Assembly (NCBI GenBank): GCA_030698565.1
Contig: JAUYJS010000008.1
Span: 86,513 to 150,512, forward strand
Origin: Candidatus Shapirobacteria bacterium
GTDB taxonomy: Bacteria > Patescibacteriota > Microgenomatia > UBA12405
Reading direction: 5' to 3'
Length of the DNA: 64,000 nucleotides
Shown: piece after piece, positions 8,600 to 62,044 of the stretch
Numbering within the stretch: the first letter of the stretch is position 1
Layout: the number at the start of each line of letters is the position of its first letter
Program-made: the position numbers and the translations under genes
Notes under the pieces: generated by a model
Database searches by the model: none
Told to the model about the DNA's origin: nothing
What the model saw: only the letters and a program-made list of their open reading frames with translations

Positions 8600-8952
8600 T
8601 TTAGTGGAAGGGATGGTCTACTTCGCTTTCAGCTTCGTAAGACCATGGGGAACCCAACCATTCTTAAAATCTTTTGTATGCAAACGCTTTTCCAGACCCA
8701 GTCTTAAGATATAATTCAAAATCTCTTGATTGTTTTTCTGTTTCGAATCCACCATATCAAACTAATTTCCATGGCAAATGCGGTTTAGTAGATTTTACTT
8801 GACCAGTATTATGGAGATTAAATCTAGTCTTTAAATCAATTGTGGATCCAAAATAGAAAATATGAGATTTTGAACTATGTAATATGTAAGCGTAATACAT
8901 ATTACAATATTATCAGATTAGGCATGCAATTCTGAAGCTATAGCGAAAGATT

Positions 8953-8993
8953 GCGGAGCAGTGGGGTCTGGAACCTTTCTATCTCTATAACTC
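8953..8993 (+). promoter_or_regulatory. Conserved intergenic motif, copy 2 of 5 (TGCGGAGCAGTGGGGTCTGGAACCTTTCTATCTCTATAACTC)
   Basis: Same core as 7166, with an upstream GCGGAG extension shared with copies 3-5. Confidence 0.5.
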
Positions 8994-9000
8994 TAATCTA

Positions 9001-9200
9001 AATAATCATGTACATTAAATTCCTCAACCGAAAAATCTTTCCCGTCAAAATTGAAAATAGTGTATCCACCTTCATGAATTTTAGAATCAATAATTATGTT
9101 ATTGTCCGGTCTAAATTTTGGTTCAAGAGCATAAACCGTATTTCTAATAATTCCTCCATGAGTTGAAATAAAAATTAAATTACTTGAATCTTTTTGTTAA
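9001..9200 (-). pseudogene. C-terminal fragment of a histidine-phosphatase (phosphoglycerate-mutase family) gene
   Basis: Reverse-strand frame reads '...ISTHGGIIRNTVYALEPKF...NVHDYLD*'. This matches the second catalytic His motif 'SAHGNSIRLF' of the intact paralog at 26272-26838. It has no start codon and sits in a 700-bp noncoding stretch. Confidence 0.4.
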
Positions 9201-9291
9201 ATTTATTTAAATCTAGGACTACTTCGGAGCAATTTGAAAGAATCAGAAATACTATAACTAATTATGGTATGAAATAGAAATACACTAAAAT

Positions 9292-22739: not shown

Positions 22740-22912
22740 AATATTTATATTCTTTTTCTATACACTGGTATTTTGGCAATCGGACTATCCATAAAATCCC
22801 TCCAAGTTAAAATATTTTTAATCAGTCAAAACTTTCTGGCATCCACCAACCATTGTATGTATTGATCCAAAATATTAATCTCTAATATTTTACAAAGTTA
22901 CTTATCTATATA

Positions 22913-23179
22913 TTAATACCTGTCCTTAATATCCAAAACAAATATTTTTGGATATTTAATTCCTTTGTAGGTGTCAATAATCCTCAATTTATGTTTATTT
23001 TCCATTACTAATATTAAATTGGCCCACTCAATATCTTTTTCACAAATTTTTCTTTCACTATTTGAACTTAATCCAACGGAACGAATATTAAATCGAACAT
23101 CATTTTTAAATAAATATTCAGCCGTTCTGCTTCGTATTTTATTACGACCACAAACAACTAAAATATTTGGTTTAATCAT
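22913..23179 (-). CDS. Low-molecular-weight phosphotyrosine phosphatase/ArsC-like P-loop protein, short form
   Basis: 'VVCGRNKIRSRTAE' fits the CX5R(S/T) P-loop. Only 88 aa, so it may be truncated. Confidence 0.45.
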   Translation of the reverse strand: MIKPNILVVCGRNKIRSRTAEYLFKNDVRFNIRSVGLSSNSERKICEKDIEWANLILVMENKHKLRIIDTYKGIKYPKIFVLDIKDRY

Positions 23180-23224
23180 AACTCGATTCTATCCTTATAA
23201 AATTTATTTATTTTCTAATTTTTA

Positions 23225-23345
23225 GATTTAATTTATGTAATTCTTTTGCATTTTTATTAGTAATAGCAATTTCTGGATCGGCAATTTCTTCTAATCTTTC
23301 ATAACCAACTTGAGCCAGCCATAATTTAAAAGGCTCGGCGTTTGG
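23225..23345 (-). pseudogene. Gene remnant with no start codon, ~48 aa ('...SPNAEPFKLWLAQVGYERLEEIADPEIAITNKNAKELHKLNLKIRK*')
   Basis: Reading frame with a stop codon at each end and no Met. Lies between a truncated phosphatase and two tRNAs. Confidence 0.3.
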
Positions 23346-23429
23346 AGAGGGAATAGATTAAATTCCAAAGATTAAAACAAAAAATCGGTTTTTAAAAAAT
23401 CGCCCGCTTTTGCAACGGTGCCGGTGCCG

Positions 23430-24187: not shown

Positions 24188-24239
24188 ATTTTATATTTAA
24201 GTCTACAAAATAATAATAAATCATTTAGTTAAAATTTGA

Positions 24240-24640
24240 TATACTTGAACGGAGTTCAAAGGGGACGTTTAAATTTGAGAAACAAATTTATTACGTTCCT
24301 TGATTTTCCTGAGACGTAAGAACATTTAATTGCTACGCAATTTTTACGTTCAACGTTTCTGTCGAGAAAATAAATTTCTCTCAGGAAGGGTGCGCCGAAT
24401 GGTAAGGCACAGGTTTGCTAAACCTGCGTCCCGCAAGGGGCATGGGGGTTCGACTCCCCCCTCTTCCGCCACGTAAATTTGCTACGCAAATTAACGTGGC
24501 TGGAACGTTAATTTTACGAAGTAAAATTTTACGTTCCGCTTTATTCACAAACTTACGTCTTGCCCTTTTTATTCAAACGCTGCTAGGAACGTAAGTTTTC
24601 TGAAAGAAAACTGTACGTTCCGCCTTCACTTCCTCCCAGT
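24240..24640. repeat. Cluster of ACGT-centred imperfect palindromes (TTACGTTCC / GGAACGTAA modules) on both sides of tRNA-Ser(GCU)
   Basis: Left of the tRNA: TTGAACGGAGTTCAA and ACGTTTAAATTTG-agaaa-CAAATTTATTACGT. Right of the tRNA: CGTAAATTTGCTACGCAAATTAACG, GGAACGTTAATTTTAC-gaag-GTAAAATTTTACGTTCC, and GGAACGTAAGTTTTCTGAAAGAAAACTGTACGTTCC. Confidence 0.6.
24384..24471 (+). tRNA. tRNA-Ser(GCU), with CCA encoded
   Basis: Acceptor GGAAGGG/CUCUUCC, anticodon loop UUGCUAA, long variable arm, T-loop GUUCGACUC, 3' GCCA. Confidence 0.85.
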
Positions 24641-30050: not shown

Positions 30051-31715
<1,665 letters not shown>

Positions 31716-31744
31716 AAATATTATTATAAATAATAGGGGCGTAT

Positions 31745-31774
31745 TACAATACGCCCCTATTTTGATTATGTACC
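31745..31774 (+). terminator. Rho-independent terminator of groESL
   Basis: Perfect hairpin AGGGGCGTATTACAATACGCCCCT followed by ATTTTG. Confidence 0.75.
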
Positions 31775-31789
31775 GAATCTGAAGCTATC

Positions 31790-32400
31790 TCCGCCGGACT
31801 CCAAAAATCCAAAGACTGTCCAATAAGATAACCATATATCCCATAACTTGAATTAAATTTATTTCCGTGTTATATTCCGCATACATTGTCATACAAGACA
31901 TTGGTCCTTTAAAACAAACCTCAGCAGGTGATTATTTTCAGAACAACCAAAAGTTGTTTTGTTAGACTCAGGGATCCAAATCAGAATTCGGGAGGTCAAA
32001 TTTTAGTGTCCACAAATCCGAGTTCCAAGAAAAATCCGAAGGTCAAAGTTACTATTGGTCCTTCTGGTCGGGTAGTGAGGGAACTCGTCTCTCACCCCGT
32101 GTTCGACGTACCTGGTCCCAAGCAGTTTAAGGTCGCTACCCATAGTAACCTTAAACTAGTCAGCGCCGAATCAGGAGAATACTCTCCTCCAGAGAGGCCG
32201 ACTCACTATCCCATGGTTCACAGTTGCACCTGCTGAATCCCTTCCGTAAAGATAAACTGAACATTCTATCTCGTTGCGAGGTAGGGCTTGTTCAATTTTT
32301 CTTGTGAAACAGGAGAGGGAACGGACGACACAATCCAACACTGTAAGCTTTCAGCTTGCAATCCATCTACGTATGTCTCCCCGTTCCCTCCCCGTTCCTT
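31790..32400. ncRNA. Candidate structured ncRNA of unassigned class. The region is GC-enriched and free of convincing ORFs.
   Basis: About 610 bp between the convergent genes groEL and idi. GC content is well above the flanks. Many stable hairpins, e.g. GTTTAAGGT..ACCTTAAAC, GGAGAATACTCTCC, GAGGGAACGG..CCGTTCCCTC and AAGCTTTCAGCTT. The only ORF, 31928-32236, looks non-coding. Confidence 0.3.
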
Positions 32401-32402
32401 TC

Positions 32403-32942
32403 TTAAATTTCCAACAATTTTTCGTTTTCTCCTCGTCTTTTATTTAATTCCTTCAAAGTTACCTTGAACCAAAAAGTATAACTGCCTGGATTTTTATTTA
32501 CATCTTCATTTAAATTTTCCCAACTAATCCATTTCCAATCTTCTGCCTCATCGCGGTTAATTATCGGGTCTTCATCATATTTGCCTATAAATACATGCAA
32601 GTATTCATTTTCACTTAATCCATGGTCTAGTTTAATTTGATATTTATATTCAAAAACTTCTTTTAATTTACAATCAAACCCCATTTCTTCTCCAAGTCTT
32701 CTATGGGCTGCTGCCAAAGTATTTTCTTCTGGTCGGGGATGGCTGCAACAAGTATTCGTCCACAATCCACCACTATGATATTTGCTCAATGCTCTTTGTT
32801 GCAACATTGTTTCGCCTTTTTCGTTGAAAATTAAAATCGAAAATGCTCGATGCCTTTTGCCATCACCCTCATGCGCCTTCATTTTTTCTTCAATTCCAAT
32901 TTGTTGATCATTTTCATCGACCAAAATTACAAAATCAGCCAT
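32403..32942 (-). CDS. idi: Isopentenyl-diphosphate delta-isomerase, type 1 (NUDIX fold)
   Basis: 'WTNTCCSHPRPEENTLAAAHRRLGEEMGF' matches the IDI-1 active-site region. Confidence 0.85.
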   Translation of the reverse strand: MADFVILVDENDQQIGIEEKMKAHEGDGKRHRAFSILIFNEKGETMLQQRALSKYHSGGLWTNTCCSHPRPEENTLAAAHRRLGEEMGFDCKLKEVFEYKYQIKLDHGLSENEYLHVFIGKYDEDPIINRDEAEDWKWISWENLNEDVNKNPGSYTFWFKVTLKELNKRRGENEKLLEI

Positions 32943-33036: not shown

Positions 33037-33109
33037 GACCCGGTAGCCAAGCGGTTAGGCAGTGGTCTGCAAAACCATATAGATGGGTTCAACTCCCGTC
33101 CGGGTCTCA
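33037..33109 (+). tRNA. tRNA-Cys(GCA)
   Basis: Acceptor GACCCGG/CCGGGUC, anticodon loop CUGCAAA, T-loop UUCAACU. Confidence 0.85.
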
Positions 33110-33114
33110 AAATC

Positions 33115-33582
33115 TTAATCATTCCTATTTTTAATTTCCATTTCCAAAATTTCCTCATTTTCTCCAAACACAAATATTGCTTCGATTTTTTCTCCACTCA
33201 AAACTTTTGGTAACCAAAATCTATCATCAACCCACATTTTATCGTAAGGAATTTTGTCTATGTCGTACCACATCGGCGCCATTTCTTCCGATTCTTGCGG
33301 TTCATTTTCCCATTCATTAATTTTATAAACCACCACTTCCTGGTTCCAATCTTGATTATTTTTAAAATAAAATTTTATTTTTGCCACCAGCTCTTGATTT
33401 TTAAATACCACCCCTATTTCTTCCATAATTTCTCTTTTTAAAGTTTCTTCGATTAATTCTCCATCATTTGGTTTTCCGCCAACCCCATTCCATTTTCCCG
33501 CCCCAAAACCTCTCTTTTTCATGGCCAATAAAATTTGATTGTCTTTAATTAAAAATCCTAATGTTGTTTGCCTTAAATTCAT
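33115..33582 (-). CDS. NUDIX hydrolase (MutT-like)
   Basis: Nudix box 'GGKPNDGELIEETLKREIMEEIGV'. Confidence 0.75.
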   Translation of the reverse strand: MNLRQTTLGFLIKDNQILLAMKKRGFGAGKWNGVGGKPNDGELIEETLKREIMEEIGVVFKNQELVAKIKFYFKNNQDWNQEVVVYKINEWENEPQESEEMAPMWYDIDKIPYDKMWVDDRFWLPKVLSGEKIEAIFVFGENEEILEMEIKNRND

Positions 33583-35664: not shown

Positions 35665-35725
35665 TATGGTCTAATGTAGCACACTGGATCAAAATTTGTA
35701 ATTTTGTCAACCGTGTCACCCTGTA

Positions 35726-35847
35726 GAGACGCATTGAATGCGTCTCAAAATATAATTTATAAAAATATGGGTAGGGGCGTATTGCAATACGCCCCTACAA
35801 AAACAATAAATTCATTCACGTACGGACAGGTCGCGACCTGTCCGTAC
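35726..35847. repeat. Three consecutive perfect palindromic hairpins in a divergent intergenic region
   Basis: GAGACGCATTGAATGCGTCTC (35726-35746), GTAGGGGCGTATTGCAATACGCCCCTAC (35771-35798) and GTACGGACAGGTCGCGACCTGTCCGTAC (35820-35847). Each is followed by AAAA(A)C. The second is nearly identical to the groEL terminator stem. Confidence 0.7.
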
Positions 35848-35941
35848 AAAAACGAATCAATAAAAACATAAAATCATTACATCCCAATACTGGGAAAATT
35901 ATGGAATCATACCTCTTTATTTTTGATAGAATAGGACAACA

Positions 35942-42897: not shown

Positions 42898-44949
42898 TTA
42901 ATTCACTATTACTGGTGTTGGCAGAACCGGACAATGAATTGATTTATCAGTATCATTGATAAAATATTCTTCTTTACCACAGACATTGGATTTATGGACC
43001 TCACTGGGTGTAGCCCAATTTTCGTCAGGCTTGCCTTCTAAAATATTTTTCATTATATTTTGCCAAATCGGAGTCGCGCCAGTTACTCCCGAAGCCACCC
43101 AACTCATGGGCGCATTGTTATTATTACCCACCCAAGTCGCCACCAAATAACTTGGTGTCCAACCGATACACCAATTGTCTTTTAGACCATTGGTCGTCCC
43201 GGTTTTCACCGCCACGGTCTTGCCGTCAATTTTTAGCTTAGAATTTAACCCAAAGATAGGGGATCTAGCCTGATTGTCACTTAGAGCGCTATTGATCAAA
43301 AAAGCATAACCTGGTTCAATGACATCTTTTTCGTCAATTTCTTTTTGATAAACTGTTTCTCCCAAATAATTTTCAATTTTTAAAATTGGATTAATTTCTA
43401 CTTTTTTACCTAGATCAGCAAAGATACTATAAGCTTGAGCCAGCTCGATCATTTTAACTTCACCACTTCCAAGCGCCAGCGATAAACCATAACGATTTCT
43501 GTCGGTCCAAGTATTTATCCCCATTTGTTCAGCCAAATCAATCATATTATTGACGCCATTTTCAGCTAAAAGTCTAACCGAGGGAATGTTCAAAGATGAA
43601 GCTAGTGCTGTTTTTAAACTAACTCGACCTAAAAATTTGCCGGTATAATCTCTTGGTGAATAAGGCTTTTGGCCCTTAATATCATAAGTTACTGGACTAT
43701 CGTCAATCATTGATGCCAAAGTCTTGCCGTTTTTTAGAGCCAAAAGATAGTTAATTGGTTTAATAGAAGAACCTGGTTGGCGTAAAGCCGTCACAATATT
43801 GTATTGACCATCAATATCGCTGGCATTGTAATTTTTAGATCCGACCATGGCTAAAACATCACCGTTTTTAGTGTCCAAAACCAAAGAAGCACCATTACTA
43901 ATATTCATACCTTTAATTTTTTCCACCTCATCCTTCACCGCCGCTTCAGCCATCGCTTGAGTATTCAAGTCTAAAGATGTAATGATAGTCAATCCCTGTC
44001 GGCCAAAATTAGTAAATCCATATTGTTTTTCTAATATATTTTTTATATAAAAAATAAAATGGGGCGCCTTCATTTTTCGTTTTTCTTTTAATAAATTTAT
44101 TTTTTCTTTTTCTGCACTTTCACCTTCTTTTTGACTGATAAATCCAGCGTTAATCATTTCCGAAATTACATGCTTTTGTCTTTCAAAGGCAAATTGAGGG
44201 TTATTGCCAAACGGCGAATAAGAACTAGGTGCGGCCGGTAATCCGGCCAAAAACGCCGCTTCACTTATATTTATTTCCCACACATTTTTGCCAAAATATT
44301 TTAGTGAAGCTTCCTCGACTCCATAGGTATCGCCACCATAAGCCACCTGGTTAAAATACTTTTCTAAAATTTCTTTTTTACTTAATTTATTTTCCAAGAC
44401 AATCGCTAAAACAGCTTCTTTTATTTTTCTTTTGAAAGTTTTTTCATTACTAAAAAAAACATTTTTAATTAGCTGTTGGGTAATTGTCGATCCACCCCGT
44501 AATTTATCTGCCCCATTTTTTTTAAAATTATAAAGTGCTGCCTTACTTAAACCTTTTAAAGAAATGCCGTTATGATAGTAAAAATCCTTATCTTCTATGG
44601 CTAAAGTTGCCCAAATTAATGACTGGGGAATCTTATCGATTGGCACCCAAGTTCGGTTCTCCTGATCATAAAATTGATATAGCAAATTGCCGTTTCGATC
44701 AACTATTTTACTGGCCATTCTCGGTGGCAAATATATTTGGTTAATATTGGGCAAATCTACTAGAATTTCTTTGTAAAAAACGACACCGATAATCGAAAAT
44801 ATTATTAAAGGAATACTAGCAATTAAATAACCCCACTTAATTTTCCTAAATAAACGCCACCCACACAATACTAGTAAGTATGCTGGATATCCTATTTCTA
44901 TTAGTATTTTCTTTATTATATTTACTCCAAGTGTCGGTTTAATTAACAA
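42898..44949 (-). CDS. Class A penicillin-binding protein (transglycosylase + transpeptidase), copy 1
   Basis: GT51 'RGGSTITQQL', then 'QPGSSIKP' (SxxK) and 'KTGTTN' (KTG). Confidence 0.9.
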   Translation of the reverse strand: MLIKPTLGVNIIKKILIEIGYPAYLLVLCGWRLFRKIKWGYLIASIPLIIFSIIGVVFYKEILVDLPNINQIYLPPRMASKIVDRNGNLLYQFYDQENRTWVPIDKIPQSLIWATLAIEDKDFYYHNGISLKGLSKAALYNFKKNGADKLRGGSTITQQLIKNVFFSNEKTFKRKIKEAVLAIVLENKLSKKEILEKYFNQVAYGGDTYGVEEASLKYFGKNVWEINISEAAFLAGLPAAPSSYSPFGNNPQFAFERQKHVISEMINAGFISQKEGESAEKEKINLLKEKRKMKAPHFIFYIKNILEKQYGFTNFGRQGLTIITSLDLNTQAMAEAAVKDEVEKIKGMNISNGASLVLDTKNGDVLAMVGSKNYNASDIDGQYNIVTALRQPGSSIKPINYLLALKNGKTLASMIDDSPVTYDIKGQKPYSPRDYTGKFLGRVSLKTALASSLNIPSVRLLAENGVNNMIDLAEQMGINTWTDRNRYGLSLALGSGEVKMIELAQAYSIFADLGKKVEINPILKIENYLGETVYQKEIDEKDVIEPGYAFLINSALSDNQARSPIFGLNSKLKIDGKTVAVKTGTTNGLKDNWCIGWTPSYLVATWVGNNNNAPMSWVASGVTGATPIWQNIMKNILEGKPDENWATPSEVHKSNVCGKEEYFINDTDKSIHCPVLPTPVIVN

Positions 44950-61433: not shown

Positions 61434-61754
61434 ATTTCGATTCTAACATTAAAATTACTTAAATATTTGCATTTTTTATATCTCTTGCCTATAATCCCCG
61501 CATATGGCTCAAGAAAAACAACCAACTAACAATCATGGTTCAATGCATAGTAATTTTTGGGATGGAAACAAACCCCCACTTCACAAATTTTTAGCAGAGC
61601 AAAGAAAAGCTGAATCCAAACAATTGCCAAATAATGTAGAAAATCCGGAACAATTAGTTCATAGGCGCATAAAAATAATCGACTAGTTCATGTCGCCCGA
61701 AAACATTCAACTAGAACGAACGACAAAGGCTGGACTATTTAATTAAAATAAATA

Positions 61755-62042
61755 TTGTGTGATATTATACGGATTATGTCACAAGAAAAATTTACTGATA
61801 TAGGGATGAGAATAGACGCCTTAATAGACAAGGCAGGAGTCAGCCCTAGCCCAACAGGAAGCATTGCGGTTTTTAATATGGCATTCTCTTGTTTAGATCG
61901 ACAAGGATTAAGACCTGAAGATTATGGTATCAACGAAGATGGTATTCGGGGAATTGTTGAAAGACAGTCTGGATCGCCAAGTTACAAGGCCGCAGTTGCC
62001 CAAAAAACTCAAGAATTGATTAATTTATATTTCAACAAATAA
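61755..62042 (+). CDS. Small hypothetical protein
   Basis: 95-aa ORF upstream of gap. Weak support. Confidence 0.3.
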   Translation: MCDIIRIMSQEKFTDIGMRIDALIDKAGVSPSPTGSIAVFNMAFSCLDRQGLRPEDYGINEDGIRGIVERQSGSPSYKAAVAQKTQELINLYFNK

Positions 62043-62044
62043 TT

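What the first reader, a model, noticed from the sequence alone, without database searches (positions are those of the whole stretch)
31790..32400. Six-hundred-bp GC-rich, ORF-free, hairpin-dense region between groEL and idi: probable structured ncRNA
- A ~610-bp noncoding gap between convergent genes is unusual in this otherwise tightly packed window.
- Its GC content is clearly above the coding flanks, the pattern expected of structured RNAs in AT-rich genomes.
- The only ORF (102 aa, 31928-32236) has non-protein-like composition.
- Many hairpins and long-range complementary segments are present, e.g. GAGGGAACGG at ~32315 pairing with CCGTTCCCTC at ~32385, GTTTAAGGT/ACCTTAAAC, and GGAGAATACTCTCC.
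- I could not match RNase P, tmRNA, SRP or 6S consensus elements by eye. It could be a divergent version of one of these or something else.
Basis: partly seen in the sequence, partly recalled or inferred. Interest (0 to 1): 0.55.

Follow-up and report, generated by a model that had tools for sequence, protein, structure and literature searches.

The report
Strain-variable small gene cassette, not housekeeping RNA
The GC-rich, hairpin-dense stretch between groEL and idi in this Shapirobacteria (CPR) genome is real, but it is the swappable middle of a small extra transcription unit that differs completely between near-identical strains and most likely encodes a small foreign protein on a highly folded mRNA, not a conserved structural RNA.

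Summary
The 687-nt groEL–idi gap (31716-32402) has a core of 47-49% GC, against 30% for other intergenic DNA. It folds far better than shuffles (z -5.3 to -5.9, + strand). No Rfam family, protein family or homologue matches it.

Comparison with relatives changes the interpretation. Relatives with 85% GroEL identity have only a 48-96 nt terminator at this site. Two close strains (flanking genes 90-97% nt identical) carry inserts here.
- L251 shares the frame: a promoter (31848-31876, 96-100% identical) and a 3' module (hairpin hpA 32258-32294 and long hairpin T2 32308-32396, about 81-87% identical). Its middle, equivalent to 31902-32262 (the flagged core), is unalignable.
- L250 holds a different 2.3-kb, three-cassette insert.

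hpA keeps 14 pairs through 2 compensatory and 5 one-sided changes, on the + strand only.

Every cargo carries GGAGG plus a start codon and a small ORF. Here that is GGAGG 31991, GTG 32006, 76 codons (shuffle p = 0.002-0.01). 45 of 52 host genes lack any Shine-Dalgarno motif.

Best reading: a horizontally acquired, strain-variable small-ORF cassette with a structured mRNA. A strain-specific ncRNA remains possible. A divergent RNase P, tmRNA, SRP or 6S RNA is rejected.

The parts
31732..31761 (.). T1: perfect 14-bp palindromic terminator hairpin directly after the groEL stop. It is the left edge of the insert.
   Evidence: The core GGGGCGTATTnCAATACGCCCC is conserved in L251. A near-copy lies at 35771-35799.
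31762..31847 (+). AT-rich, unstructured stretch upstream of the cassette promoter.
   Evidence: 76% identical to L251. Folding z is about 0.
31848..31876 (+). Sigma-70-type promoter: TTGAAT, 17-nt spacer, extended -10 TGtTATATT. The predicted transcription start is about 31884.
   Evidence: 31848-31901 is 52/54 identical to L251, which is more conserved than the flanking genes. In L250 the -35 and the TGnTATATT are kept while the spacer has diverged.
31884..31901 (+). Conserved first ~18 nt of the predicted transcript, with a small hairpin UGUC/GACA at 31887-31900.
31902..32262 (+). Variable cargo. It is a multibranch fold closed by a 10-bp helix (31921-31930 / 32227-32236). Hairpins lie at 31939-31961, 31984-32025, 32038-32064, 32069-32099, 32124-32157 and 32158-32203.
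   Evidence: GC 0.457. Folding z is -4.3 (+) and -2.2 (-). It cannot be aligned to L251 or L250. No homologue was found anywhere.
31990..31996 (+). Shine-Dalgarno-like GGGAGGT, predicted to be sequestered in hairpin 31984-32025.
   Evidence: It is the only GGAGG on the + strand of the insert.
32006..32236 (+). Candidate 76-codon ORF with a GTG start, in frame inside the 102-codon ORF 31928-32236. The product is Pro/Ser/Val/Lys-rich, hydrophilic and has no homologue.
   Evidence: Shuffle p is 0.0016-0.011. AlphaFold2 pLDDT is 35. No protein or family match.
32258..32294 (+). hpA: conserved 14-bp 3' hairpin just after the ORF stop.
   Evidence: Compared with L251 there are 2 compensatory and 5 one-sided changes and no broken pair on the + strand. 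Only 6 pairs are predicted on the - strand.
32308..32396 (.). T2: long hairpin with an invariant apical stem-loop (32342-32360). It probably acts as a shared terminator for the cassette (+) and idi (-). It contains the 11-nt tandem repeat CTCCCCGTTCC x2 at 32377-32398.
   Evidence: The 3' module 32263-32398 is 81% identical to L251 counting gap columns, and about 87% without them.
32390..32412 (+). Tail motif CCCCGTTCC-TTTCTTA-AATTTCC. The same motif ends two further cassettes in L250, and a degenerate copy ends a third.
32403..32435 (-). About 10-codon C-terminal extension of idi (RGENEKLLEI). It is absent from more distant idi proteins and from L251. It marks the right edge of the variable DNA.

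Best explanation
The groEL–idi spacer of this Candidatus Shapirobacteria strain holds a small extra transcription unit on the + strand. It sits in a strain-variable locus.

The frame is shared with a sister strain. It consists of an extended -10 promoter (31848-31876), the first ~18 nt of the transcript, a 3' hairpin hpA (32258-32294) and a long terminator hairpin T2 (32308-32396). The ~360 nt between them (31902-32262) is exchangeable cargo of foreign, GC-richer origin.

In this strain the cargo is most likely an mRNA. It has a ~120-nt leader, a GGAGG Shine-Dalgarno motif and a 76-codon GTG-started ORF (32006-32236).

The mRNA folds into a compact structure. A 10-bp helix ties the leader to the end of the ORF, and a hairpin encloses the SD and start codon. 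Translation would therefore be held low or conditional.

What is shown:
- the locus is variable between strains;
- the promoter and hpA are conserved, and hpA pairs on the + strand only;
- the fold is stronger than chance;
- an SD-led ORF is present.

What is inferred:
- transcription;
- translation;
- occlusion of the SD;
- foreign origin;
- any function of the protein.
For: 1. Relatives with 85% GroEL identity and the same groEL / idi / tRNA-Cys arrangement have only a 48-96 nt shared terminator between groEL and idi.
2. L251 (flanking genes 90-95% nt identical) aligns as a mosaic. The promoter is 96-100% identical and the 3' module 81-87%. The cargo is at random level, 35% with gaps, and alignment z is about 1.
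3. L250 (flanks 92-97% identical) has a different 2267-nt insert. It holds a related promoter (-35 and TGnTATATT kept) and three units. Each unit has GGAGG, a start codon and an ORF of 155, 107 or 33 aa. Each ends in a long hairpin followed by the tail motif, which is degenerate in the third unit.
4. hpA keeps 14/14 pairs in both strains through 2 compensatory and 5 wobble-type changes. These work only on the + strand.
5. Folding z is more negative on + than on - for the cargo: -4.3 against -2.2.
6. An SD-led ORF of at least 76 codons occurs in 0.16-1.1% of shuffles. The longest open frame has p = 0.03-0.10.
7. GGAGG is otherwise foreign to this genome. 45 of 52 host genes have no SD, and many have a -10-like box directly before the ATG. 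Yet all five cargo ORFs in the three strains have GGAGG or GGGGGA 6-10 nt before the start.
8. In L251 the SD and GTG lie about 104 nt from the conserved boundary, the same distance as here.
9. T2 is followed by a U-rich tail on the + strand.
Against: - No homologue of the 76/102-aa product exists among 1.84 billion representative proteins or 5.8 billion clustered proteins. The only two hits are repeat-protein artefacts.
- No Pfam or PHROGs match.
- AlphaFold2 gives pLDDT 35.
- GC is almost flat across codon positions (0.54 / 0.47 / 0.51). The codon score is below that of host genes.
- The SD-to-start spacer of 10 nt is long, and the start codon is GTG.
- Neither the depositor's annotation nor the Logan gene caller placed a CDS here.
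- The cargo is far more structured than the clearly coding cargo of L250, whose z is about 0 to +1. That fits an ncRNA as well.
- The host appears to translate leaderless mRNAs, so use of an SD here is unproven.
- Only three strains are available, and none shares this cargo. Neither dN/dS nor covariation can therefore be measured on the core.
Confidence: 0.5

Rival explanations
1. The cargo acts as a strain-specific structured non-coding RNA. It would be transcribed from the conserved promoter, and the SD-like motif and open frame would be incidental.
For: - The core folds with z = -5.3 on the + strand, and most helices have pair probability of at least 0.9.
- GC is 47-49% in a 35% GC genome.
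- The ORF product has no homologue, no confident fold and flat codon-position GC.
- L250 also carries non-coding, + strand-specific structured segments in its cassettes (z = -6.1 and -5.9).
Against: - No Rfam hit.
- No homologue, so no covariation can be shown.
- The core is not conserved even between strains 90-97% identical in their flanks.
- An SD-led 76-codon ORF is unlikely by chance and parallels SD-led ORFs in the other strains' cargo.
- The ORF segment alone has only z = -1.8.
Confidence: 0.25
2. It is a non-functional remnant: a decaying piece of foreign or mobile DNA left in a recombination hotspot. The apparent structure would be inherited from its source.
For: - It is specific to this lineage and has no detectable homologue anywhere.
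- The locus is a hotspot with different content in each strain.
- GC-rich palindromic repeats are dispersed in this genome.
Against: - The promoter is more conserved (96-100%) than the flanking genes (90-95%).
- hpA shows compensatory change. The frame is therefore under selection.
- 47% GC persists in a genome whose other intergenic DNA is 30% GC.
- The 107-codon open frame and the SD are intact.
- Folding z of -5 to -6 is not expected of decayed coding DNA. L250 ORFs and host CDS have z about 0.
Confidence: 0.15
3. It is a minus-strand or DNA-level element: either a long structured 3' UTR of idi, or single-stranded-DNA hairpins of a mobile element or recombination site.
For: - The absolute MFE is lower on the - strand.
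- T2 forms a longer helix on the - strand and abuts the idi stop.
- A tail motif recurs at cassette ends in L250.
Against: - Folding z for the cargo is better on + (-4.3 against -2.2).
- hpA pairs only on +.
- The conserved promoter and the SD-led ORF are on +.
- Relatives' idi genes need only a short terminator.
- No recombinase, transposase or reverse transcriptase lies in 19-52 kb of the window.
- The element is single-copy in the window.
Confidence: 0.07
4. It is a divergent housekeeping RNA (RNase P, tmRNA, SRP or 6S).
For: Only the size, GC content and folding.
Against: - No covariance-model match at E <= 10.
- No tmRNA by ARAGORN.
- The core is absent or replaced at this site in all eleven relatives' loci examined. 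These include strains 90-97% identical in their flanks.
Confidence: 0.01

Closest known systems
Flexible genomic islets (hypervariable loci between conserved housekeeping genes, exchanged by homologous recombination of the flanks)
   Same: - Conserved flanks (groEL, idi, tRNA-Cys) at 90-97% nt identity.
- Unrelated content in each of three strains.
- Foreign composition: 42-50% GC against 35%.
- No mobility gene nearby.
   Different: - The variable DNA sits inside a conserved expression frame: a promoter upstream and hairpins downstream.
- Units in L250 end in a recurring ~25-nt tail motif. This is not a general property of islets.
Integron gene cassettes with attC sites
   Same: - One to three small SD-led ORF units in a row.
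- Each ends in a long imperfect hairpin with a conserved 3' core containing GTT.
- Content is strain-specific.
- A fixed promoter lies upstream.
   Different: - No integrase within about 12-20 kb on either side.
- The arms read GGGAAC / GTTCCC, not RYYYAAC / GTTRRRY.
- Cassettes in L250 have their own promoters.
- No evidence of site-specific recombination.
Type I toxin-antitoxin loci (hok/sok-like mRNAs)
   Same: - A small independent unit between housekeeping genes that varies between strains.
- A long leader, with the SD and start enclosed in a hairpin.
- A long-range helix joins the 5' leader to the 3' end of the ORF.
- A strongly negative folding z.
   Different: - The product is 76 aa and hydrophilic, with no transmembrane stretch.
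- No antisense RNA is shown. A minus-strand promoter-like site at 32028-32000 is no more than chance.
- No sequence homology.
Large structured ncRNAs found by the GC-rich long-intergenic-region approach (OLE, ROOL, GOLLD, HEARO, raiA; PMC6429828, PMC11109978)
   Same: - A long, GC-rich intergenic region in an AT-rich genome, with high predicted structure.
   Different: - No Rfam match.
- The core is not conserved between near-identical strains.
- It contains an SD-led ORF.
- In that pipeline most such regions turn out to be ORFs, repeats or 'unnamed' (Table 1 of PMC11109978).

Membership tests
RNase P RNA / tmRNA / SRP RNA / 6S RNA (Rfam) | Match to the family covariance model | tested here: not met
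   cmscan found nothing at gathering score over the whole window, nor at E <= 10 over 31650-32500. Only terminator-like noise appeared. ARAGORN found no tmRNA.
RNase P RNA / tmRNA / SRP RNA / 6S RNA (Rfam) | Sequence and structure conserved in related genomes | tested here: not met
   The core 31902-32262 cannot be aligned to L251 or L250, whose flanks are 90-97% identical. It is absent at the syntenic site in L088, L090 and L092. The rest of those genomes could not be searched.
Known large bacterial ncRNAs (OLE, ROOL, GOLLD, HEARO, raiA) and group I/II introns | Match to the Rfam model, or the intron core (domain V, P7) | tested here: not met
   No hit at E <= 10. No host gene is interrupted: groEL and idi are complete.
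Novel structured ncRNA (generic criterion) | Covariation supporting the helices across homologues | tested here: inconclusive
   The core has no homologue, so this is untestable. The 3' hairpin hpA has 2 compensatory and 5 one-sided changes and 0 broken pairs, but with only two sequences.
Integron cassette / attC | Adjacent intI tyrosine recombinase | tested here: not met
   Pfam scans of ORFs between 19.2 and 51.8 kb found only housekeeping families.
Integron cassette / attC | R'' RYYYAAC and R' GTTRRRY core sites in the hairpin arms | tested here: not met
   The arms read GAGGGAACGG / CCGTTCCCTC and the tail reads GTTCCTT.
Type I toxin-antitoxin | Small (<60 aa) hydrophobic membrane peptide | tested here: not met
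   The product is 76 aa, Pro/Ser/Lys/Val-rich, and has no hydrophobic stretch of 15 residues or more (sequence).
Type I toxin-antitoxin | Antisense RNA overlapping the toxin mRNA | tested here: inconclusive
   One minus-strand promoter-like site lies at 32028-32000. The total count of such sites (4) is not above shuffles (3.0 +/- 1.7).
TIGR-Tas guide arrays (PMC12045711) | Tandem repeat units with box C/D-like motifs next to a Nop-domain Tas protein | tested here: not met
   The only tandem repeat is 2 x 11 nt. There is no Nop-domain protein among the neighbours.
MITE / IS remnant | Multiple copies, with terminal inverted repeats and a target duplication | tested here: not met
   It is single-copy in the 64 kb and in all fetched loci. 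The 10-bp inverted repeat 31921 / 32227 has no flanking duplication. The remaining ~290 kb of the contig could not be searched.
Protein-coding gene (generic) | Detectable homologues or a family match | tested here: not met
   phmmer against 1.84 billion representatives found only 2 repeat artefacts. A six-frame pseudo-protein against 5.8 billion proteins found nothing. Pfam and PHROGs found nothing.
Protein-coding gene (generic) | Translation signals and an open frame beyond chance | tested here: met
   GGAGG, a 10-nt spacer, GTG and 76 codons occur in 0.16-1.1% of shuffles. All cargo units in L250 and L251 show the same design.

The most novel reading that the evidence does not exclude
The groEL–idi spacer of this Shapirobacteria subclade may be a cassette-capture and expression platform that works without a nearby integrase. 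A fixed promoter and fixed 3' hairpins would frame foreign SD-led small genes or RNAs. These would be inserted or exchanged at a recurring site (C-rich arm, GTTCC, T-tract, AATTTCC), which is seen once here and three times in L250. That would be an integron-like system in the Candidate Phyla Radiation. Alternatively, the cargo in this strain may be a new ~320-nt structured RNA class.
Probability: 0.1. Interest if true: 0.7.

Novelty: new variant of a known kind. Interest (0 to 1): 0.35.

Why it matters
**For genome scans.** This is a cautionary case. A long, GC-rich, strongly folding intergenic region in an AT-rich genome looked like a structural RNA. It turned out to be the exchangeable cargo of a strain-variable locus. 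The key evidence came from strains above 90% identity, not from more distant relatives.

**For CPR biology.**
- It points to a small hotspot where foreign, Shine-Dalgarno-led small genes are expressed from a conserved promoter.
- The host genome's own genes appear to be leaderless and to lack Shine-Dalgarno motifs.
- If this is confirmed, it raises two questions: how these reduced episymbiont genomes acquire and translate foreign small genes, and what those strain-specific products do.

Tried and rejected
**Known RNA families**
- Rfam at gathering score and at E <= 10 found nothing in the gap. ARAGORN found no tmRNA.

**Search for homologues of the core**
- blastn, tblastx and nhmmer of the insert against all fetched loci and the rest of the window found no copy.
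- Phage and plasmid collections gave nothing.
- Six viral-contig scans gave only chance palindromes or nothing. They used hairpin patterns, ORF peptides, the conserved promoter, the T2 apex and the T2 arm.
- Two metagenome scans, each with six back-translated stretches of the core or the 3' domain, found nothing. They were run before the conserved frame was known, so the best patterns could not be used.

**Search for protein homologues**
- phmmer of the ORF found two hits. Both are artefacts of 5-11 identical repeats summing weak matches.
- A six-frame pseudo-protein against 5.8 billion proteins found nothing.
- Pfam and PHROGs on all ORF fragments and on the L250 and L251 ORFs found nothing significant.
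- The window and L251 ORFs show no protein similarity to each other.
- The AlphaFold2 model had too low confidence to use.

**Ideas considered and dropped**
- The N-terminally extended idi of P0125 and P0126 as a source of the insert. The extension is N-terminal, so it is irrelevant.
- An intron in idi or groEL. Both genes are complete.
- TIGR array, retron, bridge RNA or omega RNA. There are no repeat units and no partner protein.
- Enrichment of GGTC (7 copies on the + strand in 31903-32134). It is real, but was noticed after the fact and remains unexplained.
- Calling the strand from G.U counts over the whole fold. This was ambiguous.

**Technical**
- One over-long script timed out.
Full report
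**1. What is in the window**

groEL (30057-31715, +) and a NUDIX gene (32403-32942, -) converge on a 687-nt gap. Database sources name the NUDIX gene isopentenyl-diphosphate isomerase (idi). The organism is a Candidatus Shapirobacteria MAG from the CPR/Patescibacteria. Its GroEL is 100% identical to MDP4009999.1 and its idi to MDP4010000.1. These accession numbers are consecutive, so the depositor annotated no CDS between the two genes.

The gap has these properties:
- **GC content.** It is 0.43 overall and 0.47-0.49 between 31950 and 32400. Other intergenic DNA is 0.296 and coding DNA 0.35. Only a tRNA cluster is as GC-rich in the window.
- **Gap length.** Three other gaps of 611-692 nt exist, but they are AT-rich.
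- **Folding.** With dinucleotide shuffles, 31884-32400 has z = -5.9 on + and -5.1 on -. The core 31921-32236 has -5.3 and -3.95. The left part, 31762-31920, has z about 0. In 126 control windows, z averaged -0.51 with sd 1.55. The only more extreme windows held a tRNA flanked by palindromes.

**2. Known families**

Rfam gives no hit in the gap, at gathering score or at E <= 10. ARAGORN finds no tmRNA. The element is single-copy in the 64 kb.

No frame has a protein homologue:
- phmmer of the 102-aa ORF against 1.84 billion representatives returned two repeat-protein artefacts.
- A concatenated six-frame query against 5.8 billion proteins returned nothing.
- Pfam and PHROGs returned nothing.
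- Phage and plasmid collections, six viral scans and two metagenome scans returned nothing.

**3. More distant relatives**

Contigs were fetched for GroEL homologues (81-86% aa identity) and idi homologues (67-70%).

- The arrangement groEL → ← idi, tRNA-Cys → is conserved in L088, L090 and L092. There the groEL–idi spacer is only 48-96 nt and consists of one shared terminator hairpin.
- Other relatives have groEL, a terminator and then tRNA-Cys, or other genes.

The ~640 nt seen here is therefore an insert specific to this lineage.

**4. Close strains: the key result**

Cluster members at 90% identity or more led to two contigs. Their flanking genes are 90-97% nt identical to the window.

*L251* has a 647-nt spacer that aligns with the window as a mosaic:

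| Window segment | Content | Identity to L251 |
|---|---|---|
| 31716-31761 | T1 terminator region | 75% |
| 31762-31847 | AT-rich upstream stretch | 76% |
| 31848-31901 | promoter and first ~18 nt of transcript | 52/54 |
| 32263-32398 | 3' module (hpA and T2) | 81% (about 87% without gap columns) |

For the core, global and local alignment z is about 1 and tblastx finds nothing.

*L250* has a different 2267-nt insert (GC 0.42). Three kinds of short patch are shared with the window:
- a promoter region, with -35 TTGCAA, a 17-nt diverged spacer and TGcTATATT;
- the end nearest idi;
- the tail motif, a C-rich arm followed by GTTCC, a T-tract and AATTTCC. It occurs once in the window (32390-32412) and closes two units in L250, with a degenerate copy closing a third.

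The promoter scan independently flags the two extended -10 promoters in L250, in the window's + orientation.

**5. Strand and RNA-level selection**

- **hpA (32258-32294).** The hairpin keeps 14 of 14 pairs in both strains, through 2 compensatory changes (UA→CG, GC→AU) and 5 one-sided changes between G.U and A-U. On the minus strand only 6 of these pairs are predicted and none covaries.
- **T2.** It folds on both strands, with a longer helix on -. This fits a shared terminator for the convergent units.
- **Cargo.** Its folding z is -4.3 on + and -2.2 on -.

Together with the conserved promoter, this supports a + strand transcript from about 31884 to about 32400. It rests on only two sequences, so it is suggestive, not proven.

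**6. Is the cargo coding?**

*The host does not use Shine-Dalgarno motifs.* 45 of 52 host genes have no SD. Many have a -10-like box directly before the ATG, which suggests leaderless mRNAs.

*Every cargo unit at this locus does carry one*:

| Strain | SD, spacer and start | ORF |
|---|---|---|
| window | GGAGG 31991, 10 nt, GTG 32006 | 76 codons, ending at 32236 |
| L251 | GGAGG, 6 or 8 nt, GTG | 29 or 54 aa |
| L250 | GGAGG, 8 nt, ATG | 155 aa |
| L250 | GGGGGA, 7 nt, ATG | 107 aa |
| L250 | GGAGG, 8 nt, GTG | 33 aa |

*Evidence that favours coding:*
- In shuffles of the window transcript, an SD-led ORF of at least 76 codons occurs at a rate of 0.0016 (GGAGG core) or 0.011 (four SD cores).
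- The 107-codon open frame has p = 0.03-0.10.
- The start codon lies about 104 nt from the conserved boundary in both the window and L251.
- The ORF's low host-codon score (-0.12, against 0.26 +/- 0.11 for host genes) is matched by the L250 ORFs (-0.28 to 0.0). It therefore reflects foreign origin and is not evidence against coding.

*Evidence against coding:*
- There are no homologues.
- GC is nearly flat across codon positions.
- AlphaFold2 gives pLDDT 35.
- The start is GTG with a long spacer.
- The fold is much stronger than in the clearly coding L250 cargo, whose z is about 0 to +1. The ORF segment alone has z = -1.8. The extreme values come from pairings between leader and ORF: 31921/32227, 31968/32208 and 31984/32017.

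*Predicted occlusion.* The SD and start codon are predicted to lie inside hairpin 31984-32025, with pair probability 0.82.

**7. Interpretation**

*Shown:*
- The flagged core is the exchangeable cargo of a strain-variable locus.
- The locus is framed by a conserved promoter and conserved 3' hairpins.
- The cargo is not a conserved RNA.

*Most likely (confidence about 0.5):* a horizontally acquired small-ORF cassette whose compact mRNA limits its own translation.

*Still open:*
- a strain-specific ncRNA (0.25);
- a non-functional remnant (0.15);
- a minus-strand or DNA-level role (0.07).

*Rejected (0.01):* a divergent housekeeping RNA.

No recombinase, reverse transcriptase, Nop-domain protein or transposase lies between 19 and 52 kb of the window. 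Exchange by homologous recombination of the flanks is therefore the simplest mechanism. The recurring tail motif leaves room for a site-specific one.

**8. Context from the literature**

In that pipeline 4714 such regions were examined. Of these, 2948 were known ORFs, 607 were low-ranking candidates, 427 were 'unnamed' and 250 were mobile or repeat sequences (PMC11109978). A region whose core has no homologue would be 'unnamed' there. TIGR arrays are known from CPR (PMC12045711). I considered them and excluded them.

**9. Limits**

- Only three strains carry an insert at this site, and none shares this cargo.

Noticed in passing
window 31732-31761 and 35665-35941; L251 947-982 and 2163-2213: GC-rich perfect palindromes form a dispersed repeat family. 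The groEL terminator core GGGGCGTATTnnAATACGCCCC recurs at 35771-35799. The 277-nt gap 35665-35941 holds two more palindromes: GAGACGCATTGAATGCGTCTC at 35727-35747 and GTACGGACAGGTCGCGACCTGTCCGTAC at 35810-35837. Copies of these sit at other intergenic sites in L251, and L250 has a related one after groEL. They may be REP-like mobile terminators.
   Followed up: partly
window 24190-24500: The DNA around tRNA-Ser(gct) folds with z = -7.65. The tRNA is flanked by hairpins that share the core TTGCTACGCAA, at 24327-24343 and 24476-24492.
   Followed up: partly
whole window (52 gene starts): 45 of 52 genes have no Shine-Dalgarno motif. Many have a TAnAAT-like box 6-10 nt before the ATG, and all the listed genes start with ATG. 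This suggests mostly leaderless mRNAs in this Shapirobacteria genome.
   Followed up: partly
window 33109-33130; L250 4291-4947; L088, L090 and L092 next to tRNA-Cys: The DNA on the 3' side of tRNA-Cys is a second variable spot. L250 has an extra Ham1-like gene and a 41-aa ORF there. L088, L090 and L092 carry one to six unknown ORFs. The window has a second NUDIX gene at 33115-33582.
   Followed up: no
window 32403-32435: The idi gene here and in L250 has a ~10-aa C-terminal extension (RGENEKLLEI). It is absent from L251 and from more distant idi proteins. The reading frame appears to run into the variable DNA.
   Followed up: partly
proteins P0125 and P0126 (locus L092 5001-5900): In some relatives idi carries a ~125-aa N-terminal extension with no Pfam match.
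   Followed up: no
window 31903-32134: GGTC occurs 7 times on the + strand and never on the - strand in 232 nt, against about 0.4-1 expected. The copies include two exact ATTGGTCCTT (31900 and 32054) and two AGGTCAAA (31993 and 32040). This is unexplained and may reflect internal duplications.
   Followed up: partly
window 44201-44500 (+ strand, antisense to ORF 42898-44949, a PBP-type transglycosylase/transpeptidase): A control window inside a coding region folds with z = -5.4. It contains an 18-nt imperfect inverted repeat at 44258-44310.
   Followed up: no
L250 6738-6894 and 5991-6410 (in window orientation: insert positions 1052-1208 and 1536-1955): Two non-coding segments of the L250 insert are strongly structured. 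The leader of ORF-B has z = -6.1 on the cassette strand only. A 420-nt segment after ORF-B has z = -5.9 and -5.0 on the two strands. Rfam gives only sub-threshold miRNA-like noise.
   Followed up: partly
window 8600-9291, 22740-23428, 61434-62044: Three further gaps of 611-692 nt contain no ORF of 100 aa or more. They are AT-rich (GC 0.28-0.35) and were not examined for small genes or RNAs.
   Followed up: no
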